A DNA stretch of 63,590 bases from sequence record OR880647.1. One strand, written 5' to 3'. Source of the stretch: Escherichia phage ECP2304. This document shows, piece by piece, positions 1-63,590 of this stretch (its first letter is position 1; the number at the start of each line of letters is the position of its first letter). The notes below the pieces were generated by a model. The model searched no databases and was not told where the DNA came from. It saw only the letters and a program-made list of their open reading frames with translations. The position numbers and the translations under genes are program-made.

Positions 1-441
1 GAATAATTTATTCCTACTTGATAGAATAATGGAATCGGTACTCCAGAGCGCAAAAACCTAAAACTTTCAGTCAACAGACTAAAAACGGATAGAAACTAAA
101 AGTTAATAAGTAATAACATAAATATATATAAAATAAGGATTTATTAGTAATGTATATAGTACCTATTGGTATTATTTGAATGTTTTTGGGTCATTGTTAA
201 AAAGTCCCAAAACTCACAAAAAGTGAAAGAATACAATTCGTGACAGGATTGTTAATGGAATAAGGTGTATGGATATACAGTATTATTCCAGATTCCGGAA
301 TAATTGGAATAATGGAATAAATTATTGAACTATTGTGATCGGAAGGTATATCAAGCTATAATGCGCTTAATCGCGGGATATTGGAGGAGGACTTTATTGC
401 GCGGTTAACCGGACCAGTAGGAGGGCTGGCCCGGAAGTAGT

Positions 442-768
442 TTAGAGCTGTACAGGTGTGAAGTGGGCTAGCGTATCGTCGGACATAATACCCGACAGTT
501 TTTCGTTTACCCAGTCGGACCAAATGCTATCCGGTTCCTGGCGGTGCACAAACCAGATTTCGGATGTGCCTTCTTTGCGCATCGGTTGCACTTCTGCAAG
601 GAACTTGTCCTGCATAAGGCGCGTGAAGCAGACGCTGGTCATTGGAACCGGCTTTTCGTCTTTATTGTAATAAGGGACCAATATTTTATTTCCGAAGTCT
701 GCAACTTCATAAACTGTTCCTTTGCGAAGGCCTCTGATGTCAGTGTAAGAGCGGATGAACTTTTTCAT
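442..768 (-). CDS. hypothetical protein (108 aa)
   Basis: ATG start, clean ORF in minus-strand gene string inside repeat. Confidence 0.5.
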   Translation of the reverse strand: MKKFIRSYTDIRGLRKGTVYEVADFGNKILVPYYNKDEKPVPMTSVCFTRLMQDKFLAEVQPMRKEGTSEIWFVHRQEPDSIWSDWVNEKLSGIMSDDTLAHFTPVQL

Positions 769-770
769 AT

Positions 771-947
771 TTATTTCCTTACGAACACAGAGCCGACGAA
801 TAATGTTGATTGAGTTGCAGCTTGCTCGATTAATTCGCCAACAAGCTGGGACTGCGTCAGAGGTTTAAGGCCTTCTTTGGCGCGAGCTTCATTTACACGA
901 CGTTGAAGGTCTTTTAGGTATTGAGTTGCGAAACTATCTAATTGCAT
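771..947 (-). CDS. small hypothetical protein (58 aa)
   Basis: ATG at 945-947 preceded by AAGGA RBS; stop 771-773; below track size cutoff. Confidence 0.4.
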   Translation of the reverse strand: MQLDSFATQYLKDLQRRVNEARAKEGLKPLTQSQLVGELIEQAATQSTLFVGSVFVRK

Positions 948-996
948 CTTCTTATCCTTAGGGCTCCCGCAGAAGCCCGTTGAATGTGGTTATCGA

Positions 997-1146
997 CTAT
1001 AACGCTGCAAACATAAGCAGACGAATATTAACTGAAGTTTGGCTATTAAAGTCTTGACATTCTTTGATAATCTCTTCTTCACTTTTACCACTAAGTTTAG
1101 AATATTCTGTGATTGCTTGTTTTAATACAGAATCAAAATTGTTCAT
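997..1146 (-). CDS. small hypothetical protein (49 aa)
   Basis: ATG at 1144-1146 preceded by AAGGAGG RBS; translated by hand to TAG at 997-999. Confidence 0.45.
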   Translation of the reverse strand: MNNFDSVLKQAITEYSKLSGKSEEEIIKECQDFNSQTSVNIRLLMFAAL

Positions 1147-1156
1147 TTTATCCTCC

Positions 1157-1771
1157 TTATGCGTCCAGACCGTTGTATTTGCGCCAGGCGTAGAACTGAA
1201 TGGCGACAGTTGTTCCGTTGTAAGAAGGCATTGCAGCTTTCATCTCTTTCAGCGCCGGCGTGCGGCCCAGTTCCTTCAGAAGCTTGTCACCCATTGCCCA
1301 CACTTCGGCAGTTTTTCCTTTAAGGGGCTTGCGAGCGCCATTTTTGAAATCGCAGCGAGCAGCTTTTGCATCCTGTTTTGGAGCGGCAGCTTTTGGCTCT
1401 TCAATTTTGATTTCAGAAACCTGCGTGGCAGCTTTTGCGTGTTTCATATCTTTCTCTTCCTCCTGCTCCAAAGCTTTGAGGCAGCTTTTGACGATTTCCG
1501 GATTTACCATCGGGCGCAGTACCGAGGCGCTAGCAGCTGGAGCGGCGGTCGGTGCTGGGGCTTTCTGCTCCGGCTTTTGAGCTTTTTCGTGATCGCGCAG
1601 CACCTGAAGGACTTCCTTTTCGACGATGTAAAAACCGATATCGTCCTGATGGATAAGCTGTTCGTGTGCGTCGCGTGCAACCTGGCCCCAGCGAGTTTTC
1701 AGAGCGCGGCGTGCATTCGTTTTCATGGTGTAGCGCATTTTGTCCTGTTCGCGGTGAGTTACTTTAGACAT
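1157..1771 (-). CDS. hypothetical protein (204 aa), basic N-terminus and Ala/Pro-rich linker
   Basis: ATG at 1769-1771 preceded by AAAGGAG RBS; in-frame with track ORF 1157..1816. Confidence 0.6.
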   Translation of the reverse strand: MSKVTHREQDKMRYTMKTNARRALKTRWGQVARDAHEQLIHQDDIGFYIVEKEVLQVLRDHEKAQKPEQKAPAPTAAPAASASVLRPMVNPEIVKSCLKALEQEEEKDMKHAKAATQVSEIKIEEPKAAAPKQDAKAARCDFKNGARKPLKGKTAEVWAMGDKLLKELGRTPALKEMKAAMPSYNGTTVAIQFYAWRKYNGLDA

Positions 1772-1844
1772 GGTATAGCTCCTTTCGTTAATGTTAGTTT
1801 GCTTATTACTGCCCACCGTAATGATGAGCAGTGTATAAGAAAAC

Positions 1845-2093
1845 TTACTGCACGATTGCTACGAAATCGGCGGTTGCGATATCCATGCTTGCAAACGCTT
1901 TGACGGTGTAGCTGGTATCTGCCGCGGCGTTGAAGTCGCTCAGGAACTGTTGTACCGCGTGCTCATGGTTGAGCATTACGTCTACATTGCAGTCCCAGCT
2001 ATAAACCTTGCGCTGACCGAAACCTTTAACTGCAATACGCGCGCCTTTGGTGTTGGTTGGTGCCAAAAATTTGGTGACGATAGAAGTAGCCAT
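1845..2093 (-). CDS. hypothetical protein (82 aa)
   Basis: ATG with GAGGA RBS. Confidence 0.55.
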   Translation of the reverse strand: MATSIVTKFLAPTNTKGARIAVKGFGQRKVYSWDCNVDVMLNHEHAVQQFLSDFNAAADTSYTVKAFASMDIATADFVAIVQ

Positions 2094-2166
2094 GATGTAA
2101 TCCTCGTTTTGTTTAAGTTGACTTATTATTGCCCAGTCAGATCAACTAGGCAAGATATAAATCAGC

Positions 2167-2391
2167 TTATTTAACCATCAAGGCCCATCTTTTATAGCCG
2201 TTCAGCTCCATTCTATGACCGTGGTCGTTGCAGTAACGTTGGATATTATTAAAGTCGTTATCGTTCATATCGCTGACGTCAATATTAAAATAGTTGCGCT
2301 TTGCAGGTGTAACGTATTGGGATAACTGCATTGAGTACAGATGTTCAATGTTGTCGATAATAGCTTGCTGAACTTTAGTGATAGTAGCCAT
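2167..2391 (-). CDS. hypothetical protein (74 aa)
   Basis: Internal ATG at 2389-2391 preceded by GGAGGTG RBS; track ORF extends to 2451. Confidence 0.5.
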   Translation of the reverse strand: MATITKVQQAIIDNIEHLYSMQLSQYVTPAKRNYFNIDVSDMNDNDFNNIQRYCNDHGHRMELNGYKRWALMVK

Positions 2392-2781
2392 GATACACCT
2401 CCTAATGTGGTTAAGCAGTATTGCTTTGTTGAAGTAATAATAGCCTTGCATCGTGATATTGAATAGGCCAAACGTGCTATTTTGATATTGTTTTGCATCT
2501 AGTGAAAATCATGCTTGTATCGCATATTTAGCACTAATGGCCTAACTAACATCACACGATCTGGTCTACGCGCGTGCATACATACATATAAGGAGTGCCG
2601 GACAGGATCGGACCGACCAGGGGCGCTCAACCGTCTCTGTCCGTCCTGTAAGCTGGTCCCCGGACTGGTCCAAAATATTTTTATAAAAAGATGCAAAAAG
2701 GTGTAGACATATGATCAATCTAACCCTACTATATACACATACCGCAAGGGTACTACAAATTAACTTAAAGGGGTTTACATC

Positions 2782-2985
2782 ATGTCTATTCGTAGCGTTA
2801 TCTGTGTAATGGTTGCAAACAATAATTTTGGTTTCGTAGAAGGTGCAGAGTATAAAATGGATCTTAAGACTCGTTGCATTATTAAAGGTGAAGAGGAATG
2901 GCGTGCAGTGGTAGAAGATCGCGGCGATATCTACATCTATAGTTCTGATACAATGAAAACTATTGCCGTCTTCGAATTTAACTAA
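2782..2985 (+). CDS. hypothetical protein (67 aa)
   Basis: ATG with AAAGGGG RBS; first plus-strand gene after divergent intergenic region. Confidence 0.55.
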   Translation: MSIRSVICVMVANNNFGFVEGAEYKMDLKTRCIIKGEEEWRAVVEDRGDIYIYSSDTMKTIAVFEFN

Positions 2986-3053
2986 GCTAACTTATACAAT
3001 GGGCATTAGTACAGTGCCCATTAATAAGCTAACTAATTATAACGAGGTGTATT

Positions 3054-3239
3054 ATGTCTACGAACACTGTGAAGTCTGTAAATAATAGCAACAGAACATT
3101 TAAAGTTATCTATTATGGCGAATATATTGGAGACGTTACAGCTCCCAGCCGCATCGCTGCGGAAGACTTCGTCCGTACAGAGATGGAGCTTGGAATCGCC
3201 GATTTTGCAGCCATTATCGAACTGGTAGAGGTATTCTGA
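3054..3239 (+). CDS. hypothetical protein (61 aa)
   Basis: ATG with GAGGTG RBS. Confidence 0.5.
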   Translation: MSTNTVKSVNNSNRTFKVIYYGEYIGDVTAPSRIAAEDFVRTEMELGIADFAAIIELVEVF

Positions 3240-3240
3240 T

Positions 3241-3381
3241 ATGCAACGCAAATACACGCTTACACGCGCACAGCACGCGTTATTGATTGCAGCTATGCGC
3301 GCAGAATATGCAGTACACGGCTGGCATAGCGCCATGATGCGAGGTAAAAGCATATATGCAGACATATGCTCGCAAGAATAA
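3241..3381 (+). CDS. small hypothetical protein (46 aa)
   Basis: TGAtATG coupling to upstream gene; hand-translated to TAA at 3379-3381. Confidence 0.35.
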   Translation: MQRKYTLTRAQHALLIAAMRAEYAVHGWHSAMMRGKSIYADICSQE

Positions 3382-3944
3382 CGCACACAGCAGCACCACA
3401 GCGAGCTAAAGCTCAAAGGTAATGGTAATGCATTACCAACACACAATAAGCACGCTGTACCCAGCAAAGCGGCGCTAATTTCAACACTCACAGGCTGTAC
3501 GTTAACGCGTACGGCCTGCTCTGCTATATGCACGCCATGTATATAGCCAGCTCACAATGCACATCAATATAATTACGAATGAAATGGATTCGTCTGGAAG
3601 AATAACAATTCTTACAGTCACAGACCGGTCCAATGAGCCAACTCATAGACCCCACCTAGGATCATCAGGGTACTAATAATCACCCGAGGGCCCTTATCCA
3701 TCCTGATAGTAAGTGCTTGCCTAAATCTTACCCATCACTTTACTATCCACATACATCCATGACCCCACCTACCTTCTTTTTGAATATATTGCGCTCATCC
3801 TTTCTAAATATATGGATTTTGGTAGTAAATTCTGAGTCGTCAACGTATAATCCGTCTTGTAGCTGCCCCATAGCTACCATCTTTAAGCGGATGCAACCAA
3901 TTTCTATCAATTCTCACCAGTTTTAGAGCATCAAGGAGGTATTT

Positions 3945-17599: not shown

Positions 17600-18048
17600 T
17601 GCTGGGATACGATTTTATCAATGACGCATTTAATAAGATGCTACGCGAAGCCGTTGGACCGGATATAGGTATAGCGTGGAAGAACAAGAAGTTTACACCT
17701 AAAGCGAATCAGATGTGGTTAAAGGCAATCAATGCACCTGCATCCACATACGCGGCAACGTTAGGTGACAACGGTCTGAATGAAATTCCAGGATTCTATC
17801 AAGTCACAGTGTACAGTCCGTTAAACACTGGAACATCTAAACAGAATCAAATCTTGGATTCCATTCGGAAAAAGTTTAAACTGGGCTTGCGTATCCCGTG
17901 CCCGGATGACCACACGATACGAATTGTCAGCTTAGACTTTTCGCAGGGTGGACAAACTTCGCTGAATGATTTTACCAAAGGCGGGGTTGAAGACAACTGG
18001 GACGTTAACTTTATTACAATCTATTGGTCGGCTCGTGAGCCGAGGTAA
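17599..18048 (+). CDS. putative tail terminator protein
   Basis: Gene order, directly upstream of major tail protein. Confidence 0.35.
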   Translation: MLGYDFINDAFNKMLREAVGPDIGIAWKNKKFTPKANQMWLKAINAPASTYAATLGDNGLNEIPGFYQVTVYSPLNTGTSKQNQILDSIRKKFKLGLRIPCPDDHTIRIVSLDFSQGGQTSLNDFTKGGVEDNWDVNFITIYWSAREPR

Positions 18049-18062
18049 GAGAGGATCTAAAT

Positions 18063-18986
18063 ATGGCTACAGGTTCACGTTATTCGTGTTACTACGTCAA
18101 AGAAGATGTAAGCAACACAACTCCAGCGAACGCAAAGTTTACCCCGTTTCGTGTAACGAGCTCCGGTCTGGATATTAACATTGCGACGCTGGAGTCTGAA
18201 GAGTTGCGCGATGACGCAGAAACCGCAGACTTCCGTCTTGGCGCTCGAAGCGTTGAAGGTACGGTAACAGGCGAAATGTCCTTCGGTACATTTGACGACC
18301 TCATTGCGGCAGCACTGCGCGGTGAATGGCAGGACAACGTTCTTAAAGGTGGTATTGTTCGCCAGTCATTTACTTTTGTAGACTATAACGCAGATTTGCC
18401 ATCGGGTAAATACACAATCTATCGCGGTTGTGAAGTTAACAGCATGACTTTCTCATTGTCTGCTGAAAACATGACCACAGTAGAGTTCGGCATTGTTGGT
18501 CGCTCGATGGAAATTGCGGAATCGCTTCCTGCTGGTGCTACCATCAAAGCGCGTACAACTACTTCTCCGATGGACGGCTTCTCTGGTCGCTTGCTGGAAA
18601 ACAACGAAGAGATCAGCGTTATTACGGAAATCGGTCTTACCGTTGAAAACGATATCGCCCCACGCTTCGTTGTTGGCTCGAAGTTCTCCATTGAACCGTC
18701 TGCTGGTCGCCGTGCTGTAACTGGTACAGCTAACGTTTACTTCCTGGATAACAAACTGCGTATGAAGTATCTGGATGAAGTGGAAACATCAATCAAGTTT
18801 GACCTGATTGACCCGACCAATCCGGAACAGAAATACACAGTGGAAATCCCTCGCGTGAAATTCACTGAGGCTCCGCGTCCTATTGACGGTGAAGGTGATA
18901 TCATGCTTAATATGGGCTACCGCGGATTGCTGGACCCAACAACCGCAAGTTCCATCAAAATTACCCGCGTTTTAGCGGCAGAATAA
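18063..18986 (+). CDS. major tail (tube) protein
   Basis: 307-aa ORF directly upstream of G/GT chaperone and tape measure. Confidence 0.55.
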   Translation: MATGSRYSCYYVKEDVSNTTPANAKFTPFRVTSSGLDINIATLESEELRDDAETADFRLGARSVEGTVTGEMSFGTFDDLIAAALRGEWQDNVLKGGIVRQSFTFVDYNADLPSGKYTIYRGCEVNSMTFSLSAENMTTVEFGIVGRSMEIAESLPAGATIKARTTTSPMDGFSGRLLENNEEISVITEIGLTVENDIAPRFVVGSKFSIEPSAGRRAVTGTANVYFLDNKLRMKYLDEVETSIKFDLIDPTNPEQKYTVEIPRVKFTEAPRPIDGEGDIMLNMGYRGLLDPTTASSIKITRVLAAE

Positions 18987-18995
18987 GGATAAGAA

Positions 18996-19403
18996 ATGAC
19001 CGACACCAAAAAAGGCAAAGTTGCAGTAGCTAAAAGCTTCCGTGATTTTAAAACTGTGAGCCGGGCAAATGATCCGGCAAACACTAAGCCTATGAATGTG
19101 GTTATTCCTGGTGTAGGCGACACTGGCGAAAAACTCTACATTCGTAGTCGCTACTGCACAGAGTATCGTGACGCAGAATTGAAAGCACAACGTCAACTGT
19201 TGGCACTTATGCAGGGTAAAGACGGGGAAGTAACGGATGCTATGAAGGAAGATATCCTTACCCGTTCACTGTGTAATCTTGTAGCAGGTTGGACGTTTGA
19301 CGAGCCACCAACTGTTGACAACGTGTTTGAGTTCTTAACGGAGAACCCAACTGTCCGAGAAGACCTTAACGTATTTGCCGCTAAAGATAGTAATTTTTTC
19401 TAA
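18996..19403 (+). CDS. tail assembly chaperone (G-like)
   Basis: Precedes tape measure; ends AAT TTT TTC TAA with slippery heptamer. Confidence 0.65.
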   Translation: MTDTKKGKVAVAKSFRDFKTVSRANDPANTKPMNVVIPGVGDTGEKLYIRSRYCTEYRDAELKAQRQLLALMQGKDGEVTDAMKEDILTRSLCNLVAGWTFDEPPTVDNVFEFLTENPTVREDLNVFAAKDSNFF

Positions 19404-19801
19404 AAGCGCGCAGACAGTTAATTGATAAGAAGATCCTCCAATGGGAACTAAATAGTAAAGTCCCCGGCGGGGGATCTTCTTTATTATCGCAACTGCAAAA
19501 GGTTGAGGAACAGTCTGGTAAGACGCCACCTAAGCTTAAAGAATATCGGGAAAAGGAAATACCGCTTTGCTTCGAATATCTATCTACTTTATTTGATGAT
19601 ATCTACACTGGAGGAGATTTTAGTTATACAGAATTGCACAGCTATCAAGTGACAATGGGCTTACATCTTCAACCGTACGAATGCGAAATACTGCGGCAGC
19701 TATGGCTTGAAAAGCGCGTGTCAGAAGCTGAACAAAATGCTAAACTCATGGAAAGTCAAATGCAAAATCAAAATAAAGGTAGAAGAAAAAGGAGAAGATA
19801 A
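18996..19801 (+). CDS. tail assembly chaperone GT fusion via programmed -1 frameshift
   Basis: Slippery T_TTT_TTC at 19394-19400; -1 frame is open from 19394 to TAA at 19799-19801 with no start codon of its own. Confidence 0.55.
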
Positions 19802-22800
19802 TGGCCGAAACCGCTTCGCTAGTAATCAGAGTTGACGCGAGAGGGATTAGTACCGCGGACTCTATGTTGCGGAACTTAGCGCGTACAGGTGACACAGCGG
19901 AGCGGTCTGCTCAACGTGTTACCTCCAGCTATAAAACATTGTCTAACACATCTAACGAACTTGCAACTGTCACAAGTCGTTTGGATGCTGCAATTGTAGG
20001 AATGATTAGCGTTGACACTATTAGCCGTGTTATTTCGCTATCGGACTCCTGGACTATCCTCACCAACAAACTTGAACTGGCTCGTACGGGTAATGAAACC
20101 GTTGCAGATGCGCAGCAACGCGTGTTTGATATTGCCCAGCGTTCTCGTACAAGCTTAGAAGCGACTGCAACTCTGTACTCCCGTCTCCAGCGTGCGATGA
20201 AGAATACTGGTATGACAGGGATGGAGCTTGGACGCATTACCGAAACAATTAACAAAGCAATGATTGTTTCCGGTGCAACATCCCATGAAGCAAGTGCTGC
20301 CCTTATTCAGTTTTCGCAAGCAATGGCATCCGGTGTTCTGCGTGGGGATGAATTCCGCTCTGTTGCAGAACAAGCTCCGCGCTTAACTCAAATCATGTCC
20401 GATTCTTTAGGTGTTACCATTGGACAATTGCGTGAACTGGCCTACAGCGGCAAGTTAACAGCTGATGTGGTTATCAAATCGTTGTCTGGTGCTGCGGATA
20501 CAATTGATAAAGAATTTAGCCGCACTATGCCAACGTTCAACCAGCAATGGACAGTTGCAACAAACAACCTGACTAAGTTTATGGGTGAATCCCAAAAGAC
20601 TCAAGGTGCGGTCGCTGCATTGGGACAGACGTTTGTTGCATTATCCGAAAACTTAGGAACGGTTGTAACGGTTGGTTCAGCTTTAGCCACAGTAATCACC
20701 GCCCGTATCATTACGGCAATGCTTGCTAAGACTAAAGCGTCTATAGCTGCTGCAAAAGCATCTCAGATGGAAGCTGCACAAACTGCGGCAACTACGGCGG
20801 TGATGCAAAGCTCCATTGGCGTTACTGCACAAAAAGCGGCTGCGGACCGTGCTGCTTCCCTTGCATCTTTGCAGGTTGCACGCGGTGCGTTAGCGGTTGC
20901 TAAGGGTACGGCAGCGGAAGCGGGTGCTCGCCTTGCGCTCATCAATGCTACCCGTGCTCACTCTGCGGCAATTATGGCGGACGTACAAGCGCGGCAAGCG
21001 CTCAATGCTGCTCTTAATGCAACTGTACCAGCCGCAAGCCGGGCAGCTACAGCAATGAGCGTGCTGCGCGGTGCTATGGGGTTAATTGGCGGTCCTGTTG
21101 GTGTAGCAATGCTGGCAGCGGGTGCAATTTACTCCTATAAAGCGTCGCTGGAAGCTGGTCGTGCGGAAAACAATCAGTTTGCAGATAGTGTTGATAGTGT
21201 ACGCGAAAAACTGATGCAAATGACGGAAGCTCAGCTTGCAGCTAATGCTGTTAAAGCTAGAGCAATACTTCCGGAACTTGAAGAGCAAATGAAGCGCGAG
21301 CAGACCGCTCTTAAATCTGCAACGGAAACGCAGAAGTTCTATGAAGCACAATTGAAGCGTCGAGCTGCATCCGGTCGAGATACTGCTAGTGCTGAGAAGA
21401 ACTTACAAATTGCTACGGATAATGTCAAGCTTGCTGCTGAGCGTGCGGAAGAAGCGCAACGTCGTTACAATAACGTATTGGAAATGACAAGCCCCGCTAT
21501 CGAGAAGATAATCCCTCTAGCGCGTCAGCTTGCTGCGGATATGAAGGCTGTCCTTAACATTAAATCCGGTCCGTTAATTGACGAAAAAGTATTGGATCGC
21601 TTTAAAGGTCAGCTCGGGGACGTTAACCGTGAGATTGATGTTAACACGGTTAAGGGTGCTGGCAATGCTCGCCAAGCTGCAATCCTTAGTGGGCTGTATC
21701 AGACGCTGGGCAAGGATGCGGATACATACGGAAGTCTTATTCGCAAAGTAGCTATGGGTCAGGACGTTAGCTCAGAGGCAACAAGCGAATCCGCTAAAGA
21801 GCTTGTTAAATATGCTCAAGAATTAGCAGAAGCTTACGGCAAGAATTATGATCTCGAGGAAGCGGAGAGGAACCGAACTAAAGCGACAAAAGACGGTATT
21901 AAAGCAGAACAACAGAACGCCAAAGTTATTGACGATTTACGCAACAAGCTTAACGAAGTAACCACAGGGGTTAAGGAAAACGCCAAAGCTAAAGCTCAAG
22001 CTGTGGCGCTTAATAAGCTCAATGCGTCTGCAACGGCTGCGGAAAAAGCAGAAGTTGTTAGTCTTGCTGCTGCAATTTACGATGCAGAAGAAGCTCAAAA
22101 GAAACTGGACGAGCGTAAGAAGAATCGTAAGTTTGCTCAGGGTCTGTTAGATGAAGGTATGACAGACTATGAAAAAATCGCGTACGAGCAAAATACAAAG
22201 ATTGCAGAGCTTAATGCAAAACAGCGAGCGGATGATTTAGCTTACTATCAGCTTTACGAAGATGCTAAAACCCAAGTGCTGAAAAAAGCAAGCATGGAAA
22301 GGGAAAACCTGGATAAAGTTCTTATGAACCGAATGATATCCTTTTCTCAGGAATCGTTGGGTATTATACTGTCTGGCCTGGAAGAAGGTGTTAGTAAGCA
22401 AAACTTTATTTATAAAGCGATGTTTGCTGCACAGAAAGCAATGCAAATCCCATCAATCCTTGCTAACACGGAAACCGCAGCATCCGCCGCGCTTGCGTGG
22501 GGTACACAGCAGGGCGGTGCTACAATGGGCGCAGCTATGGCTGGTATAGTGAAAGCTATGGGTTACGCTTCCGCTGCCACTGTGGGTGGCTTAGCGATTG
22601 CTGGTATGGCTCACGACGGTATCGATAACGTTCCGCGCGAAGGTACATGGTTGCTGGATAAGGGTGAACGTGTACTTAATGCTCCGTCTAATGACAAGTT
22701 AAATCGCTTCCTGGATAGCCAATCTTCACAACAAGGTGGCGTGAATATGTCAGGCGGTGTTACCATTATTCAGAATATTACTGTACAAGGGAACGGCGAT

Positions 22801-22917
22801 GCAGCGCTCAAGCAAGCAATGCAGCAAGCCGCTCGTGATGGTGCGGAGCAGGGATATAATAAAGTTCTTACAGACTTTGCATCCCGAGGAACAATTCGTA
22901 GAACTGCAATGGGGTAA
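19801..22917 (+). CDS. tape measure protein
   Basis: 1038 aa, Ala-rich coiled-coil, follows chaperone. Confidence 0.85.
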   Translation: MAETASLVIRVDARGISTADSMLRNLARTGDTAERSAQRVTSSYKTLSNTSNELATVTSRLDAAIVGMISVDTISRVISLSDSWTILTNKLELARTGNETVADAQQRVFDIAQRSRTSLEATATLYSRLQRAMKNTGMTGMELGRITETINKAMIVSGATSHEASAALIQFSQAMASGVLRGDEFRSVAEQAPRLTQIMSDSLGVTIGQLRELAYSGKLTADVVIKSLSGAADTIDKEFSRTMPTFNQQWTVATNNLTKFMGESQKTQGAVAALGQTFVALSENLGTVVTVGSALATVITARIITAMLAKTKASIAAAKASQMEAAQTAATTAVMQSSIGVTAQKAAADRAASLASLQVARGALAVAKGTAAEAGARLALINATRAHSAAIMADVQARQALNAALNATVPAASRAATAMSVLRGAMGLIGGPVGVAMLAAGAIYSYKASLEAGRAENNQFADSVDSVREKLMQMTEAQLAANAVKARAILPELEEQMKREQTALKSATETQKFYEAQLKRRAASGRDTASAEKNLQIATDNVKLAAERAEEAQRRYNNVLEMTSPAIEKIIPLARQLAADMKAVLNIKSGPLIDEKVLDRFKGQLGDVNREIDVNTVKGAGNARQAAILSGLYQTLGKDADTYGSLIRKVAMGQDVSSEATSESAKELVKYAQELAEAYGKNYDLEEAERNRTKATKDGIKAEQQNAKVIDDLRNKLNEVTTGVKENAKAKAQAVALNKLNASATAAEKAEVVSLAAAIYDAEEAQKKLDERKKNRKFAQGLLDEGMTDYEKIAYEQNTKIAELNAKQRADDLAYYQLYEDAKTQVLKKASMERENLDKVLMNRMISFSQESLGIILSGLEEGVSKQNFIYKAMFAAQKAMQIPSILANTETAASAALAWGTQQGGATMGAAMAGIVKAMGYASAATVGGLAIAGMAHDGIDNVPREGTWLLDKGERVLNAPSNDKLNRFLDSQSSQQGGVNMSGGVTIIQNITVQGNGDAALKQAMQQAARDGAEQGYNKVLTDFASRGTIRRTAMG

Positions 22918-22920
22918 TAT

Positions 22921-23505
22921 ATGCTCACTTGGCCCGAAGAGCTTAGACCATCGGAAATGGAATGGTATCTAGTCTCAAACGCTGTAGAATTTACAAGCCC
23001 CTTCAATGGGGCTTCCCAAACTGTGTCATATCCCGGATCTCGTTGGGAAGCGACGCTGACATTTAGCAACTTAAATGACTGGCAATCCAGAAAGCTTGAG
23101 TCAACGTTAGCTAAACTTGATGGTAAAGCTGGTCGCATTATGCTTCAGGATTTTGGTCGCTGGGGGCGACCTCCAATGGGATCACCTGTGGTTAATGGGG
23201 CAAATAACACTGGGACAACTTTGTCAACTAAGGGCTGGACTCCTGACCGTAAGGTATTATGGGAAGGGGACTACATCGCAGTGAACAATGAATTAAAATT
23301 AATAACAGAAGATGCTTGGAGTGATTCTTCTGGTAACGTGATTTTAAATATTGCCCCGATGTTAAGAAGCATCCCTCCAAACGGTGCAAAGATTGAAACT
23401 CAGAAACCACAAGGATTTTTCCGTTTAGCCGAAAACACAAATGGAGTTAAACGTCAGCCTGCTTTTAATAACTCCTTTACTTTAAAATTCTCGGAGGCAT
23501 TTTAA
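22921..23505 (+). CDS. minor tail protein (distal tail, M-like position)
   Basis: Gene order after tape measure. Confidence 0.45.
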   Translation: MLTWPEELRPSEMEWYLVSNAVEFTSPFNGASQTVSYPGSRWEATLTFSNLNDWQSRKLESTLAKLDGKAGRIMLQDFGRWGRPPMGSPVVNGANNTGTTLSTKGWTPDRKVLWEGDYIAVNNELKLITEDAWSDSSGNVILNIAPMLRSIPPNGAKIETQKPQGFFRLAENTNGVKRQPAFNNSFTLKFSEAF

Positions 23506-24089
23506 TGTTATTCAGTCCGTTTAGCGACAGCCTTCTTAGCGCAATGGAGCGACCAAACGTTGCGCTAGTGTTGGCAGCGGAAATAGACTTCCCTTCCGGT
23601 ATAACCCGCGTTCATACTGGAACAGGAACTGTTATTATCAATGGTCAGACTTTTCTTGGTGTAGGCACTCTAGGGGATGTTGGATCGGTTACAGAAGAAA
23701 ACAGCACAAGCTCAAGCACTATGTCCATGGCACTTAGCGGTCTGGATATGAGTCTTGTAGGAGAAACGTTAAACGAAGAAGTTATTGGCCGCAATGTTAT
23801 TTGCTATCTTGCGGTTATGAACGATCAAGGCGTTGTCACTGGTGCAAACGTATTATTTGAAGGGTTTATCACAGACACTGCTTTACAAGCAGGCCAACAG
23901 AATGCGTTGAGTTATGTTATTGCCAATGTCTTTGAGCGTTGGTCGCAGGGTTTACCGGATCGCTATACGGATGAAAGTCAGCAACGTTTACATCCGGGTG
24001 ATCGGTTCTTTAGATATGTTGCGCAAATGGCTGAACGTTCAATCTTTTGGGGGAGTAAAAAAGATGCGCCAGGATTCACGTATGAGTAA
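23505..24089 (+). CDS. minor tail protein (L-like position)
   Basis: Gene order. Confidence 0.45.
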   Translation: MLFSPFSDSLLSAMERPNVALVLAAEIDFPSGITRVHTGTGTVIINGQTFLGVGTLGDVGSVTEENSTSSSTMSMALSGLDMSLVGETLNEEVIGRNVICYLAVMNDQGVVTGANVLFEGFITDTALQAGQQNALSYVIANVFERWSQGLPDRYTDESQQRLHPGDRFFRYVAQMAERSIFWGSKKDAPGFTYE

Positions 24090-59787: not shown

Positions 59788-60336
59788 ACCCTAACACCCA
59801 AATCCCGACTGTTAGTAAAAAACGTATATAAATCAATAGCATAGATACTAAATGAATAGTGATTGGAATGGGTAGAAATCCAAATGATGGAAGTGGAATA
59901 ATTTATTCCTACTTGATAGAATAATGGAATCGGTACTCCAGAGCGCAAAAACCTAAAACTTTCAGTCAACAGACTAAAAACGGATAGAAACTAAAAGTTA
60001 ATAAGTAATAACATAAATATATATAAAATAAGGATTTATTAGTAATGTATATAGTACCTATTGGTATTATTTGAATGTTTTTGGGTCATTGTTAAAAAGT
60101 CCCAAAACTCACAAAAAGTGAAAGAATACAATTCGTGACAGGATTGTTAATGGAATAAGGTGTATGGATATACAGTATTATTCCAGATTCCGGAATAATT
60201 GGAATAATGGAATAAATTATTGAACTATTGTGATCGGAAGGTATATCAAGCTATAATGCGCTTAATCGCGGGATATTGGAGGAGGACTTTATTGCGCGGT
60301 TAACCGGACCAGTAGGAGGGCTGGCCCGGAAGTAGT

Positions 60337-60663
60337 TTAGAGCTGTACAGGTGTGAAGTGGGCTAGCGTATCGTCGGACATAATACCCGACAGTTTTTCG
60401 TTTACCCAGTCGGACCAAATGCTATCCGGTTCCTGGCGGTGCACAAACCAGATTTCGGATGTGCCTTCTTTGCGCATCGGTTGCACTTCTGCAAGGAACT
60501 TGTCCTGCATAAGGCGCGTGAAGCAGACGCTGGTCATTGGAACCGGCTTTTCGTCTTTATTGTAATAAGGGACCAATATTTTATTTCCGAAGTCTGCAAC
60601 TTCATAAACTGTTCCTTTGCGAAGGCCTCTGATGTCAGTGTAAGAGCGGATGAACTTTTTCAT
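60337..60663 (-). CDS. hypothetical protein (repeat copy of 442..768)
   Basis: Identical duplicate in right repeat. Confidence 0.5.
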   Translation of the reverse strand: MKKFIRSYTDIRGLRKGTVYEVADFGNKILVPYYNKDEKPVPMTSVCFTRLMQDKFLAEVQPMRKEGTSEIWFVHRQEPDSIWSDWVNEKLSGIMSDDTLAHFTPVQL

Positions 60664-60665
60664 AT

Positions 60666-60842
60666 TTATTTCCTTACGAACACAGAGCCGACGAATAATG
60701 TTGATTGAGTTGCAGCTTGCTCGATTAATTCGCCAACAAGCTGGGACTGCGTCAGAGGTTTAAGGCCTTCTTTGGCGCGAGCTTCATTTACACGACGTTG
60801 AAGGTCTTTTAGGTATTGAGTTGCGAAACTATCTAATTGCAT
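60666..60842 (-). CDS. small hypothetical protein (repeat copy of 771..947)
   Basis: Identical duplicate. Confidence 0.4.
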   Translation of the reverse strand: MQLDSFATQYLKDLQRRVNEARAKEGLKPLTQSQLVGELIEQAATQSTLFVGSVFVRK

Positions 60843-60891
60843 CTTCTTATCCTTAGGGCTCCCGCAGAAGCCCGTTGAATGTGGTTATCGA

Positions 60892-61041
60892 CTATAACGC
60901 TGCAAACATAAGCAGACGAATATTAACTGAAGTTTGGCTATTAAAGTCTTGACATTCTTTGATAATCTCTTCTTCACTTTTACCACTAAGTTTAGAATAT
61001 TCTGTGATTGCTTGTTTTAATACAGAATCAAAATTGTTCAT
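60892..61041 (-). CDS. small hypothetical protein (repeat copy of 997..1146)
   Basis: Identical duplicate. Confidence 0.45.
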   Translation of the reverse strand: MNNFDSVLKQAITEYSKLSGKSEEEIIKECQDFNSQTSVNIRLLMFAAL

Positions 61042-61051
61042 TTTATCCTCC

Positions 61052-61666
61052 TTATGCGTCCAGACCGTTGTATTTGCGCCAGGCGTAGAACTGAATGGCG
61101 ACAGTTGTTCCGTTGTAAGAAGGCATTGCAGCTTTCATCTCTTTCAGCGCCGGCGTGCGGCCCAGTTCCTTCAGAAGCTTGTCACCCATTGCCCACACTT
61201 CGGCAGTTTTTCCTTTAAGGGGCTTGCGAGCGCCATTTTTGAAATCGCAGCGAGCAGCTTTTGCATCCTGTTTTGGAGCGGCAGCTTTTGGCTCTTCAAT
61301 TTTGATTTCAGAAACCTGCGTGGCAGCTTTTGCGTGTTTCATATCTTTCTCTTCCTCCTGCTCCAAAGCTTTGAGGCAGCTTTTGACGATTTCCGGATTT
61401 ACCATCGGGCGCAGTACCGAGGCGCTAGCAGCTGGAGCGGCGGTCGGTGCTGGGGCTTTCTGCTCCGGCTTTTGAGCTTTTTCGTGATCGCGCAGCACCT
61501 GAAGGACTTCCTTTTCGACGATGTAAAAACCGATATCGTCCTGATGGATAAGCTGTTCGTGTGCGTCGCGTGCAACCTGGCCCCAGCGAGTTTTCAGAGC
61601 GCGGCGTGCATTCGTTTTCATGGTGTAGCGCATTTTGTCCTGTTCGCGGTGAGTTACTTTAGACAT
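61052..61666 (-). CDS. hypothetical protein (repeat copy of 1157..1771)
   Basis: Identical duplicate. Confidence 0.6.
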   Translation of the reverse strand: MSKVTHREQDKMRYTMKTNARRALKTRWGQVARDAHEQLIHQDDIGFYIVEKEVLQVLRDHEKAQKPEQKAPAPTAAPAASASVLRPMVNPEIVKSCLKALEQEEEKDMKHAKAATQVSEIKIEEPKAAAPKQDAKAARCDFKNGARKPLKGKTAEVWAMGDKLLKELGRTPALKEMKAAMPSYNGTTVAIQFYAWRKYNGLDA

Positions 61667-61739
61667 GGTATAGCTCCTTTCGTTAATGTTAGTTTGCTTA
61701 TTACTGCCCACCGTAATGATGAGCAGTGTATAAGAAAAC

Positions 61740-61988
61740 TTACTGCACGATTGCTACGAAATCGGCGGTTGCGATATCCATGCTTGCAAACGCTTTGACG
61801 GTGTAGCTGGTATCTGCCGCGGCGTTGAAGTCGCTCAGGAACTGTTGTACCGCGTGCTCATGGTTGAGCATTACGTCTACATTGCAGTCCCAGCTATAAA
61901 CCTTGCGCTGACCGAAACCTTTAACTGCAATACGCGCGCCTTTGGTGTTGGTTGGTGCCAAAAATTTGGTGACGATAGAAGTAGCCAT
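61740..61988 (-). CDS. hypothetical protein (repeat copy of 1845..2093)
   Basis: Identical duplicate. Confidence 0.55.
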   Translation of the reverse strand: MATSIVTKFLAPTNTKGARIAVKGFGQRKVYSWDCNVDVMLNHEHAVQQFLSDFNAAADTSYTVKAFASMDIATADFVAIVQ

Positions 61989-62061
61989 GATGTAATCCTC
62001 GTTTTGTTTAAGTTGACTTATTATTGCCCAGTCAGATCAACTAGGCAAGATATAAATCAGC

Positions 62062-62286
62062 TTATTTAACCATCAAGGCCCATCTTTTATAGCCGTTCAG
62101 CTCCATTCTATGACCGTGGTCGTTGCAGTAACGTTGGATATTATTAAAGTCGTTATCGTTCATATCGCTGACGTCAATATTAAAATAGTTGCGCTTTGCA
62201 GGTGTAACGTATTGGGATAACTGCATTGAGTACAGATGTTCAATGTTGTCGATAATAGCTTGCTGAACTTTAGTGATAGTAGCCAT
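62062..62286 (-). CDS. hypothetical protein (repeat copy of 2167..2391)
   Basis: Identical duplicate. Confidence 0.5.
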   Translation of the reverse strand: MATITKVQQAIIDNIEHLYSMQLSQYVTPAKRNYFNIDVSDMNDNDFNNIQRYCNDHGHRMELNGYKRWALMVK

Positions 62287-62676
62287 GATACACCTCCTAA
62301 TGTGGTTAAGCAGTATTGCTTTGTTGAAGTAATAATAGCCTTGCATCGTGATATTGAATAGGCCAAACGTGCTATTTTGATATTGTTTTGCATCTAGTGA
62401 AAATCATGCTTGTATCGCATATTTAGCACTAATGGCCTAACTAACATCACACGATCTGGTCTACGCGCGTGCATACATACATATAAGGAGTGCCGGACAG
62501 GATCGGACCGACCAGGGGCGCTCAACCGTCTCTGTCCGTCCTGTAAGCTGGTCCCCGGACTGGTCCAAAATATTTTTATAAAAAGATGCAAAAAGGTGTA
62601 GACATATGATCAATCTAACCCTACTATATACACATACCGCAAGGGTACTACAAATTAACTTAAAGGGGTTTACATC

Positions 62677-62880
62677 ATGTCTATTCGTAGCGTTATCTGT
62701 GTAATGGTTGCAAACAATAATTTTGGTTTCGTAGAAGGTGCAGAGTATAAAATGGATCTTAAGACTCGTTGCATTATTAAAGGTGAAGAGGAATGGCGTG
62801 CAGTGGTAGAAGATCGCGGCGATATCTACATCTATAGTTCTGATACAATGAAAACTATTGCCGTCTTCGAATTTAACTAA
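62677..62880 (+). CDS. hypothetical protein (repeat copy of 2782..2985)
   Basis: Identical duplicate. Confidence 0.55.
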   Translation: MSIRSVICVMVANNNFGFVEGAEYKMDLKTRCIIKGEEEWRAVVEDRGDIYIYSSDTMKTIAVFEFN

Positions 62881-62948
62881 GCTAACTTATACAATGGGCA
62901 TTAGTACAGTGCCCATTAATAAGCTAACTAATTATAACGAGGTGTATT

Positions 62949-63134
62949 ATGTCTACGAACACTGTGAAGTCTGTAAATAATAGCAACAGAACATTTAAAG
63001 TTATCTATTATGGCGAATATATTGGAGACGTTACAGCTCCCAGCCGCATCGCTGCGGAAGACTTCGTCCGTACAGAGATGGAGCTTGGAATCGCCGATTT
63101 TGCAGCCATTATCGAACTGGTAGAGGTATTCTGA
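62949..63134 (+). CDS. hypothetical protein (repeat copy of 3054..3239)
   Basis: Identical duplicate. Confidence 0.5.
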   Translation: MSTNTVKSVNNSNRTFKVIYYGEYIGDVTAPSRIAAEDFVRTEMELGIADFAAIIELVEVF

Positions 63135-63135
63135 T

Positions 63136-63276
63136 ATGCAACGCAAATACACGCTTACACGCGCACAGCACGCGTTATTGATTGCAGCTATGCGCGCAGA
63201 ATATGCAGTACACGGCTGGCATAGCGCCATGATGCGAGGTAAAAGCATATATGCAGACATATGCTCGCAAGAATAA
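63136..63276 (+). CDS. small hypothetical protein (repeat copy of 3241..3381)
   Basis: Identical duplicate. Confidence 0.35.
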   Translation: MQRKYTLTRAQHALLIAAMRAEYAVHGWHSAMMRGKSIYADICSQE

Positions 63277-63590
63277 CGCACACAGCAGCACCACAGCGAG
63301 CTAAAGCTCAAAGGTAATGGTAATGCATTACCAACACACAATAAGCACGCTGTACCCAGCAAAGCGGCGCTAATTTCAACACTCACAGGCTGTACGTTAA
63401 CGCGTACGGCCTGCTCTGCTATATGCACGCCATGTATATAGCCAGCTCACAATGCACATCAATATAATTACGAATGAAATGGATTCGTCTGGAAGAATAA
63501 CAATTCTTACAGTCACAGACCGGTCCAATGAGCCAACTCATAGACCCCACCTAGGATCATCAGGGTACTAATAATCACCCGAGGGCCCTT

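What the first reader, a model, noticed from the sequence alone, without database searches (positions are those of the whole stretch)
18996..19801. Programmed -1 frameshift site for the G/GT tail assembly chaperone
The chaperone gene ends AAT TTT TTC TAA with slippery heptamer T_TTT_TTC at 19394-19400. The -1 frame is open from there for 135 codons with no start codon, ending at TAA overlapping the tape-measure ATG (TAATG at 19799-19803). This matches the conserved G/GT frameshift of tailed phages.
Basis: partly seen in the sequence, partly recalled or inferred. Interest (0 to 1): 0.4.

Follow-up and report, generated by a model that had tools for sequence, protein, structure and literature searches.

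The report
Phage tail chaperone G/GT frameshift site
This is the ordinary, already-annotated -1 ribosomal frameshift by which a Seurat-like E. coli phage makes a short and a long version of its tail assembly chaperone; the only unexpected extra is a conserved RNA hairpin just downstream whose role is unknown.

Summary
Gene G (18996-19403, 135 aa) ends AAT TTT TTC TAA. The in-register heptamer T_TTT_TTC (19394-19400) fills the whole 7-nt overlap between the opening of the -1 frame and the G stop. The -1 frame then runs 135 codons to a TAA that overlaps the tape-measure ATG (19801). One correction: start-like codons do exist, but the first is 80 codons in, and none has a Shine-Dalgarno motif.

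- G lies between the tail-tube and tape-measure genes.
- Both halves map collinearly on one chaperone profile, phrog_569.
- The extension passes Pfam Phage_TAC_18.
- Among 15 Seuratvirus genomes, codon-position variation switches to the -1 frame exactly at the heptamer, including across the stretch with no start codon.
- All 13 GenBank relatives examined, and 52 of 53 IMG/VR loci, keep the -1 arrangement. Most have T_TTT_TTC or A_AAT_TTT.

It is already known. The window is a Seuratvirus, and the Seurat GenBank record annotates the same join and slippage.

One extra finding: synonymous variation is suppressed over about 19383-19527. A hairpin there is more stable than synonymous recodings in most lineages. 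Its distance from the heptamer does not fit a classic stimulator.

The parts
18063..18986 (+). Tail tube (major tail) protein gene, immediately upstream of G
   Evidence: Pfam PF18906 Phage_tube_2, E 1.9e-41
18985..18989 (+). Shine-Dalgarno-like AAGGA, 6 nt before the G start codon
   Evidence: Read from the sequence. The Seurat record annotates an RBS at the homologous position.
18996..19403 (+). Gene G: the short tail assembly (tape-measure) chaperone, 135 aa, made by normal translation and ending at TAA 19401-19403
   Evidence: ORF confirmed. phrog_569 positions 11-126, E 4e-25, and phrog_313 'tail assembly chaperone', E 3.6e-11. Variation is concentrated at frame-0 third positions, 69 of 87 variable columns.
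19394..19400 (+). Slippery heptamer T_TTT_TTC, in register with G. It fills the entire overlap between the opening of the -1 frame and the G stop.
   Evidence: Invariant in 15 Seuratvirus genomes. Conserved as TTTTTTC or TTTTTTA in all 13 GenBank relatives examined and in 26 of 53 IMG/VR loci, with A_AAT_TTT in 13 more.
19400..19801 (+). T extension in the -1 frame (first new codon CTA 19400-19402, stop TAA 19799-19801). It is translated only as the C-terminal half of the 268-aa GT fusion, join(18996..19400,19400..19801).
   Evidence: phrog_569 positions 130-256, E 4.8e-47. Pfam PF23812 Phage_TAC_18, 36.9 bits against a cut-off of 27. In 19401-19654, 28 of 37 variable columns are -1-frame third positions. 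Codon columns with synonymous-only versus amino-acid-changing variation are 22/8 in the -1 frame and 0/29 in frame 0.
19423..19486 (+). Long RNA hairpin inside the T coding sequence. Arms are 19423-19439 and 19469-19486, with an inner hairpin at 19442-19466. It starts 22 nt 3' of the heptamer. Role unknown.
   Evidence: MFE -34.3 kcal/mol, z -4.0 against dinucleotide shuffles and z about -3.8 to -4.1 against synonymous recodings. Hairpins with different arm sequences lie over homologous codons in JenK1, Vid5 and EC151. A simple scan also flags 19460-19475 as terminator-like.
19406..19526 (+). Larger predicted RNA domain in the Seuratvirus clade. Basal helices 19406-19419 with 19509-19526 begin 5 nt after the heptamer and enclose the main hairpin and a second hairpin at 19490-19505. 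It coincides with the trough of synonymous variation at about 19383-19527.
   Evidence: RNAalifold consensus with 3 compensatory pairs. 94.5% of cells are paired, against 35-56% when partners are slid. Only 3 of 40 third positions vary here against 105 of 228 elsewhere, Fisher p 1e-6. The basal helix is not supported outside this clade.
19790..19794 (+). Shine-Dalgarno AGGAG for the tape-measure gene, lying inside the 3' end of T
   Evidence: Read from the sequence. An RBS is annotated at the homologous place in Seurat.
19801..22917 (+). Tape-measure protein gene. Its ATG overlaps the T stop codon (TAATG).
   Evidence: Pfam PF20155 TMP_3, E 1e-59, and phrog_339, E 3e-178

Best explanation
This is a programmed -1 ribosomal frameshift. 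Most ribosomes translating G read AAU UUU UUC and terminate at UAA, which yields the 135-aa chaperone G.

A minority slip back one base. This happens while the two tRNA-Phe occupy UUU (P site) and UUC (A site), and both re-pair with UUU. Those ribosomes then read CUA AAA GCG ... for 133 more codons and yield the 268-aa fusion GT, with the junction ...DSNFF-LKARRQ....

By analogy with phage lambda gpG/gpGT, the G part binds the tape-measure protein. The T part recruits the tail-tube protein, so the tube polymerises around the tape measure. The frameshift efficiency fixes the G:GT ratio.

Shown here: the sequence anatomy, -1-frame coding constraint from the heptamer onward, family membership, and deep conservation of the arrangement. 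Inferred: that the slip is ribosomal, its efficiency, and the protein-binding roles.
For: (1) Anatomy. The in-register T_TTT_TTC is exactly the 7-nt overlap. The -1 frame is open for 135 codons and ends on the tape-measure ATG.
(2) Context. The order is tail tube, G/T, tape measure.
(3) Family. G and the extension map collinearly on one profile, phrog_569, at positions 11-126 and 130-256. phrog_313 is named 'tail assembly chaperone'. The extension passes Pfam Phage_TAC_18.
(4) Selection. In 15 Seuratvirus genomes, third-position variation switches from frame 0 to frame -1 at the heptamer. In 19401-19654, which has no start codon before TTG 19634, synonymous-only versus amino-acid-changing codon columns are 22/8 in the -1 frame and 0/29 in frame 0.
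(5) Comparative. All 13 GenBank relatives examined keep T at -1 with an in-register TTTTTTC or TTTTTTA. They include Nonagvirus, Vid5, EC151, and Providencia, Klebsiella, Pseudomonas and Xanthomonas phages, plus STP-SP5 and yong3. The heptamer lies 0-54 nt before the G stop, and T homology starts right after it (FFLKARRQLID / FFLRSREKLID / FFRERVERLAAF). In IMG/VR, 52 of 53 loci have T at -1 and 39 have a canonical heptamer. The rest carry near-canonical sites such as C_AAT_TTT and G_GTT_TTT at the same spot.
(6) No Shine-Dalgarno motif precedes the first three internal start-like codons (TTG 19634, GTG 19649, ATG 19655).
(7) The Seurat GenBank record annotates the same join and slippage.
(8) The lambda G/GT model and its wide conservation are described in PMC5009743.
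Against: No protein-level evidence exists for GT in this phage or its genus, and none was found in the papers searched. In E. coli, U_UUU_UUA and U_UUU_UUU were reported as much less shift-prone than A_AAA_AAG (PMC5009743), so the efficiency may be low. That would still be consistent with the low G-T frameshifting seen in lambda. No robust stimulator at the canonical 5-9 nt spacing is conserved across lineages. A U6 run could in principle also allow RNA-polymerase slippage, which would give the same protein.
Confidence: 0.92

Rival explanations
1. The downstream frame is an independent small gene started at an internal codon. Candidates are ATG 19655 (48 aa), as annotated in the BASEL phages, CSP1C, Greed and the KS phages, or TTG 19634 (55 aa), the window's counterpart of the TTG-started ORFs called in some relatives. 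Under this reading no fusion protein is made.
For: Several GenBank records annotate it this way. Start-like codons do exist from codon 81 onward.
Against: The 254 nt upstream of ATG 19655 evolve as -1-frame coding sequence: 28 of 37 variable sites are third positions, with 22 synonymous-only against 8 amino-acid-changing codon columns. These 254 nt encode the most conserved part of the T family (FFLxAR..L..W.L...PPG..SSLL, GKTP), which aligns without gaps from the heptamer onward in 12 lineages. No Shine-Dalgarno motif precedes these starts. The Pfam and PHROG matches extend upstream of residue 88 of the extension. The position of the first start-like codon varies from 18 to 97 codons among relatives.
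Confidence: 0.03
2. GT is made by transcriptional slippage. RNA polymerase adds one extra U in the U6 run, and ordinary translation of that minority mRNA gives the same fusion.
For: The site is a homopolymeric T6 run (T7 in JenK1 and EC151). The protein product would be indistinguishable from the frameshift product.
Against: From my own knowledge, programmed polymerase slippage in bacteria typically uses runs of about 9 or more A or T. The family also uses non-homopolymeric heptamers at the same position, A_AAT_TTT in 13 loci as well as G_GTT_TTT and C_AAT_TTT. These fit tRNA re-pairing but not polymerase slippage. In every case seen, the T-run is locked in X_XXY_YYZ register with frame 0.
Confidence: 0.04
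3. G and T are really one gene, and the apparent frame change is a homopolymer sequencing error or a pseudogenising indel in this assembly.
For: Homopolymer runs are prone to sequencing error.
Against: The identical two-frame arrangement is present in all 35 GenBank relatives matched at the DNA level (all full-length matches span 806 nt with no length change). It is also present in distant relatives and in 52 of 53 metagenomic loci.
Confidence: 0.005
4. The frame-0 ORF TTG 19503-19652 (49 aa), called as a 'hypothetical protein' in the KS_A8 and KS_S4 records, is the real gene in this gap.
For: It is an open frame with a TTG start and is annotated in two records.
Against: In frame 0 this stretch has 0 synonymous-only against 26 amino-acid-changing codon columns, and at least one relative has a stop. 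The -1 frame has 18 against 8 and no stops.
Confidence: 0.005

Closest known systems
Escherichia phage Seurat CPT_Seurat13/14, 'tape measure chaperone' (GenBank KM236243; genus Seuratvirus, Queuovirinae)
   Same: It is the same gene pair in the same genus. The 806-nt region is 97.4% identical, and the heptamer with its flanks is identical.
   Different: Nothing of substance differs. The annotation is computational, and the genome announcement names only a 'tape measure chaperone' (PMC4342423). Most sister records annotate the region differently or leave it empty.
Phage lambda gpG/gpGT -1 frameshift, and the conserved G/GT arrangement of long-tailed dsDNA phages (Levin et al. 1993; Xu, Hendrix and Duda 2004, 2013, 2014, as summarised in PMC5009743)
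   Same: Two overlapping ORFs lie between the major tail gene and the tape-measure gene. There is a -1 shift at a heptamer near the end of G, and the downstream frame has no start of its own. The expected product ratio is low, and the chaperones are absent from virions.
   Different: From my own knowledge, the lambda site is G_GGA_AAG, whereas here it is U_UUU_UUC with both sites read by tRNA-Phe. Here the G stop codon directly abuts the heptamer. I did not test for sequence similarity to lambda G or T; membership rests on the PHROG and Pfam chaperone families. This family also shows excess RNA structure 3' of the site.
Phage T7 gene 10A/10B frameshift (G_GUU_UUC)
   Same: It is a -1 shift on a U-rich, Phe-codon site in an E. 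coli phage structural gene. Some distant relatives of this family use G_GTT_TTT at the homologous position.
   Different: It is a different gene (capsid) and is unrelated to tail chaperones. The T7 site is recalled from memory and was not tested here.
E. coli dnaX -1 frameshift cassette (A_AAA_AAG plus a 3' stem-loop at a spacer of about 6 nt)
   Same: A heptamer is followed by a 3' RNA structure. PaMx74 and DoCa5 relatives have a stem starting about 6 nt after the heptamer.
   Different: In the window and the other enterobacterial lineages, the conserved hairpin starts 22-36 nt after the heptamer. That lies outside the 5-9 nt range typical of stimulators (PMC5009743). No upstream Shine-Dalgarno-like element was seen.

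Membership tests
G/GT tail assembly chaperone frameshift of long-tailed phages | Two overlapping ORFs located between the major tail (tube) gene and the tape-measure gene | tested here: met
   Tube PF18906 at 18063-18986, G/T at 18996-19801, tape measure PF20155 at 19801-22917
G/GT tail assembly chaperone frameshift of long-tailed phages | The downstream ORF is in a shifted frame (-1) and lacks its own translation start at its 5' end | tested here: met
   The -1 frame opens at 19394. The first start-like codon is 80 codons in, and no Shine-Dalgarno motif precedes TTG 19634, GTG 19649 or ATG 19655.
G/GT tail assembly chaperone frameshift of long-tailed phages | A slippery X_XXY_YYZ heptamer in register with G inside the overlap | tested here: met
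   T_TTT_TTC at 19394-19400 is the whole 7-nt overlap. TTTTTTC is depleted in the window overall.
G/GT tail assembly chaperone frameshift of long-tailed phages | The shifted frame is under protein-coding selection from the slip site onward | tested here: met
   Third-position periodicity switches at the heptamer. Synonymous-only against amino-acid-changing codon columns are 22/8 in the -1 frame and 0/29 in frame 0 over 19401-19654.
G/GT tail assembly chaperone frameshift of long-tailed phages | The arrangement is conserved in relatives despite low sequence similarity | tested here: met
   13 of 13 GenBank relatives examined and 52 of 53 IMG/VR loci have T at -1. A heptamer is conserved at the point where T homology begins.
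G/GT tail assembly chaperone frameshift of long-tailed phages | Sequence membership in tail assembly chaperone protein families | tested here: met
   Pfam PF23812 Phage_TAC_18 on the T part, 36.9 bits against a cut-off of 27. phrog_569 covers both halves, and phrog_313 'tail assembly chaperone' covers G. No Pfam hit on the G half, and no PDB relative by sequence.
G/GT tail assembly chaperone frameshift of long-tailed phages | Two proteins, G and GT, are made in a fixed low GT:G ratio, both are needed for tail assembly, and neither is in the virion | not testable with these tools
   This needs proteomics, reporter assays and genetics. No such data were found for Seurat-like phages.
Canonical 3' RNA stimulator of -1 ribosomal frameshifting | A stable RNA structure 3' of the heptamer, beyond what composition and the encoded protein would give | tested here: met
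   Window z is -4.0 against dinucleotide shuffles. Against synonymous recodings the mean z is -2.5 over 23 lineages, compared with 0.0, -0.65 and -1.06 in control regions.
Canonical 3' RNA stimulator of -1 ribosomal frameshifting | The structure begins 5-9 nt after the heptamer | tested here: inconclusive
   The Seuratvirus consensus has a basal helix starting 5 nt after the heptamer, with 2 compensatory pairs. Across 20 lineages, however, excess pairing is seen only at +31-42 and +55-72, with none at +1-30. The main hairpin starts at +23 in the window.
Canonical 3' RNA stimulator of -1 ribosomal frameshifting | Base pairs supported by covariation | tested here: inconclusive
   There are 3 compensatory pairs and 7 pairs with wobble-compatible one-sided changes among 5 distinct sequences. 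Only 3 of 500 shuffles reach the observed covariation score. In other clades, hairpins sit over the same codons but with different pairing partners. In the Nonagvirus clade all substitutions fall in loops or keep G-U/G-C pairs.
Intrinsic (Rho-independent) terminator | A GC-rich hairpin directly followed by a U-tract, conserved in relatives | tested here: not met
   The pattern scan flags 19460-19475 plus CTTCTTTATT. That count (4 sites) is close to the chance expectation (2.3), the U-rich run forms the 3' arm of the larger hairpin, and the JenK1 and EC151 hairpins are not followed by a U-tract.

The most novel reading that the evidence does not exclude
The first roughly 130 nt of the T extension (19406-19526) may carry a selected RNA structure. 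Its conserved core is a long hairpin 22-36 nt 3' of the slip site, found in many lineages of this chaperone family. It may help set the relative amounts of tail proteins in one of two ways. It could tune -1 frameshifting from an unusually long distance or through a clade-specific basal helix. Alternatively, it could act as an mRNA processing, stability or attenuation element placed just after the G stop, keeping tube and G expression high and GT and tape-measure expression low.
Probability: 0.35. Interest if true: 0.45.

Novelty: already known. Interest (0 to 1): 0.17.

Why it matters
The main result has practical value only. It confirms that the correct annotation here is join(18996..19400,19400..19801) for a 268-aa GT protein. 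It also shows that most of the 35 deposited Seuratvirus-like genomes mis-annotate the region as an empty gap, a 48-aa ORF or a frame-0 ORF.

The RNA element would matter modestly if it proves functional. The lambda-type G/GT shift is usually described as a bare slippery site. A conserved structure at a non-canonical distance would give a handle on how the tube : G : GT : tape-measure stoichiometry is set.

Tried and rejected
- **Antisense ORF 19335-19529 (64 aa)** as the cause of the synonymous-site trough. Rejected: stop codons interrupt it in STP-SP5, yong3, JenK1 and EC151.
- **Rfam scan of 18900-19900.** It returned only two sub-threshold chance hits, mir-1002 and RAGATH-25.
- **PDB sequence search with GT.** It returned nothing meaningful; the best E-value was 0.43, to Rof.
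- **Intrinsic terminator reading of 19460-19475.** The pattern matches, but the site count is near the chance level and the U-tract is not conserved.
- **Canonical-spacer stimulator across the family.** No excess pairing at +1-30.
- **KS_A8 apparent single-piece tblastn match**, a possible in-frame fusion. This was a false lead: its sequence at the junction is identical to the window.
- **Nonagvirus synonymous trough.** Only marginal (5/48 against 52/216, p 0.05), and it extends further 3', so it is not an independent confirmation.
- **Literature search for experimental evidence of GT in Seurat-like phages.** None was found.
- **Not run.** I did not run structure prediction or the large protein-database searches, because the family assignment was already clear.

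Full report
**What the window is.** Megablast of 18000-21000 finds 35 phage genomes, most at 93-98% identity. They include Aeromonas phage SD04, Escherichia phages phiG7 and GottfriedDienst, Seurat (the type species of Seuratvirus, Queuovirinae) and CAjan. The window is one 59,895-bp genome plus an exact 3,695-bp wrap-around repeat.

**Checking the observation.** The sequence is as described. G runs from 18996 to 19403 and ends AGT AAT TTT TTC TAA. TTTTTTC lies at 19394-19400 in X_XXY_YYZ register. In the -1 frame there is a TAA at 19391-19393, so that frame opens exactly at 19394. It runs 135 codons to TAA 19799-19801, which overlaps the tape-measure ATG at 19801 (TAATG).

A productive -1 shift can therefore only happen on the two Phe codons of the heptamer.

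One detail needs correcting. The frame is free of ATG/GTG/TTG for only its first 80 codons. TTG 19634, GTG 19649 and ATG 19655 follow, and none has a Shine-Dalgarno motif. G and the tape-measure gene each have AAGGA at the right distance.

**Is it chance?**
- A stop-free run of 135 codons occurred in 0.005% of shuffles of this region, and 80 start-free codons in 2.5%.
- TTTTTTC is under-represented in the genome, with 11 copies against 22 +/- 5 expected. This copy is the only + strand one in the + strand structural module.
- There are 44 junctions in the window where a long frame is followed by a long -1 frame. This one has by far the latest first start-like codon and is one of three with an in-register heptamer.

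**What the proteins are.** The upstream gene is a tail tube protein (PF18906). The gene before that is a tail terminator (PF13554). The downstream gene is a tape-measure protein (PF20155).
- G matches phrog_569 at positions 11-126, and also phrog_313, 'tail assembly chaperone'.
- The -1 extension matches the same phrog_569 profile at positions 130-256, so the two halves are collinear on one family of fused proteins.
- The extension also passes Pfam Phage_TAC_18.

**Is the -1 frame translated from the heptamer?** I compared the 806-nt region in 15 Seuratvirus genomes. There are no indels, and divergence reaches 14%.
- In G, 69 of 87 variable columns are frame-0 third positions.
- In 19401-19654, upstream of the ATG that several records use, 28 of 37 variable columns are -1-frame third positions.
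- There, codon columns with synonymous-only against amino-acid-changing variation are 22/8 in the -1 frame, 0/29 in frame 0 and 2/26 in the +1 frame.

This rejects both alternative annotations seen in GenBank. One is the 48-aa ATG ORF or a TTG ORF. The other is the frame-0 ORF 19503-19652.

**Comparative evidence.** tblastn with the fusion finds 118 phage records. In relatives at 27-41% identity, G and T always match as two pieces. I examined 13 records in detail: Seurat, GottfriedDienst, KS_A8, STP-SP5, yong3, JenK1, Vid5, EC151, PSTCR4, VLCpiS6a, PaMx11, PaMx74 and DoCa5.
- In all 13, T is at -1 relative to G, and an in-register TTTTTTC (TTTTTTA in EC151) lies in the overlap, 0 to 54 nt before the G stop.
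- T homology begins immediately after the heptamer in every lineage, and the first 27 codons align without gaps.

The conserved landmark is therefore the heptamer and not the stop codon.

A scan of IMG/VR with a T alignment gave 53 loci. In 52 of them T is at -1 of a 125-185-codon ORF. A canonical heptamer is present in 39: TTTTTTC in 22, AAATTTT in 13 and TTTTTTA in 4. The others have near-canonical sites such as C_AAT_TTT or G_GTT_TTT at the same position. Non-homopolymeric heptamers and a strict register argue for tRNA slippage and against RNA-polymerase slippage.

**Is it new?** No. The Seurat GenBank record (KM236243) already annotates a joined CDS, 'tape measure chaperone', with 'ribosomal slippage (10236)'. 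That coordinate maps to window 19397, inside the heptamer, and gives the same protein. The genome announcement mentions only the chaperone gene (PMC4342423).

The mechanism and function follow the lambda G/GT paradigm, as summarised in PMC5009743. G and GT are made at about 30:1. G binds the tape-measure protein and T binds the tube protein. Neither is in the virion, and the arrangement is conserved across long-tailed phages. No experimental test in Seurat-like phages was found.

**An extra feature: suppressed variation.** Synonymous variation is strongly suppressed just 3' of the slip site.
- Positions 19383-19434 are invariant in all 15 genomes.
- Only 3 of 40 third positions vary in 19383-19502, against 105 of 228 elsewhere (Fisher p 1e-6).

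**The RNA structure there.** The RNA from 19401 to 19510 folds into a long hairpin, with arms at 19423-19439 and 19469-19486. Its MFE is -34.3 kcal/mol and z is -4.0. STP-SP5, yong3, JenK1, Vid5 and EC151 have strong hairpins over the homologous codons, but their arm sequences are different and their pairing partners are somewhat shifted.

I also used a stricter control that permutes synonymous codons while keeping the protein.
- The first 42 codons after the heptamer are more stable than expected in all 23 lineages, with mean z -2.5 and 16 lineages below -2.
- Three control regions of the same genes give mean z of 0.0, -0.65 and -1.06 (paired Wilcoxon p from 2e-6 to 2e-4).

Within the Seuratvirus clade the consensus fold is a 121-nt domain at 19406-19526, whose basal helix starts 5 nt after the heptamer.
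- It has 3 compensatory pairs.
- 94.5% of cells are paired, against 35-56% when partners are slid.
- All four sites that vary among the close genomes lie in loops or keep a G-U pair.

**Limits of the RNA evidence.** Across 20 lineages the excess pairing sits at +31-42 and +55-72, not at the canonical 5-9 nt spacer (spacer range from PMC5009743). A role as a classic frameshift stimulator is therefore not established.
- PaMx74 and DoCa5 do have a stem with a spacer of about 6 nt.
- An overlapping antisense ORF is ruled out.
- Rfam has no match.
- The terminator reading is weak.
- The Nonagvirus clade shows only a marginal trough, although all its substitutions are structure-compatible.

The element looks real as a selected RNA-level or DNA-level constraint, but its function is open.

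**Verdict.** The finding is confirmed and correctly interpreted, but it is an ordinary and already-annotated G/GT frameshift. The downstream hairpin is the only part that might repay an experiment.

Noticed in passing
window 19383-19527: There is a trough of synonymous variation among 15 Seuratvirus genomes: 3 of 40 third positions vary here, against 105 of 228 elsewhere. It coincides with a long RNA hairpin at 19423-19486 and a predicted 121-nt domain. The structure is more stable than synonymous recodings in all 23 lineages of the family. Its function is unknown.
   Followed up: partly
window 1-3695 and 59896-63590: The two ends of the window are identical with 0 mismatches over 3,695 nt. 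The window is therefore a 59,895-bp phage genome written past its own start, either by circular permutation or as an assembly wrap-around.
   Followed up: yes
GenBank relatives (loci L001-L003, L008, L017, L020-L024): Annotation of this region is inconsistent across records. Among the 10 close Seuratvirus records whose annotation I inspected, only Seurat carries the joined frameshift CDS. Others show an empty gap (CAjan, SLUR76), a 48-aa ATG ORF (BASEL phages, CSP1C, Greed), a TTG-started ORF (Skure), or a spurious frame-0 ORF (KS_A8, KS_S4).
   Followed up: partly
whole window, both strands: TTTTTTC occurs 11 times against 22 +/- 5 expected from dinucleotide shuffles, and all 100 shuffles had at least 11. 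This suggests general avoidance of the slip-prone motif outside the programmed site.
   Followed up: partly
window 19700-19790: A second stretch of low third-position variation lies at the 3' end of T, just upstream of the tape-measure start. It may reflect the embedded ribosome-binding site (AGGAG 19790-19794) or translational coupling.
   Followed up: no
window 23481-23487: An in-register T_TTA_AAA heptamer lies near the end of ORF 22921-23505, whose -1 frame is the next gene (23505-24089). That gene has its own ATG in an ATGA overlap, so this is probably coincidental.
   Followed up: no
L015 (PaMx74) 838-900 and L016 (DoCa5) 745-795: These Pseudomonas and Xanthomonas relatives have a stem-loop starting about 6 nt after their TTTTTTC heptamer, which is the canonical stimulator spacing. 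In the enterobacterial lineages the hairpin lies 22-36 nt away.
   Followed up: partly
IMG/VR loci L048-L055, L061, L064-L066, L075: These distant members of the family lack a strict X_XXY_YYZ heptamer. At the homologous spot they carry C_AAT_TTT, G_GTT_TTT or A_CTT_TTT instead. These are imperfect P-site re-pairing sites that resemble the phage T7 gene 10 site.
   Followed up: partly
IMG/VR locus L057: This is the only locus of 53 in which the longest upstream open frame puts T at +1 rather than -1 (142 against 131 codons). It may be an artefact of frame choice or a sequence error.
   Followed up: no
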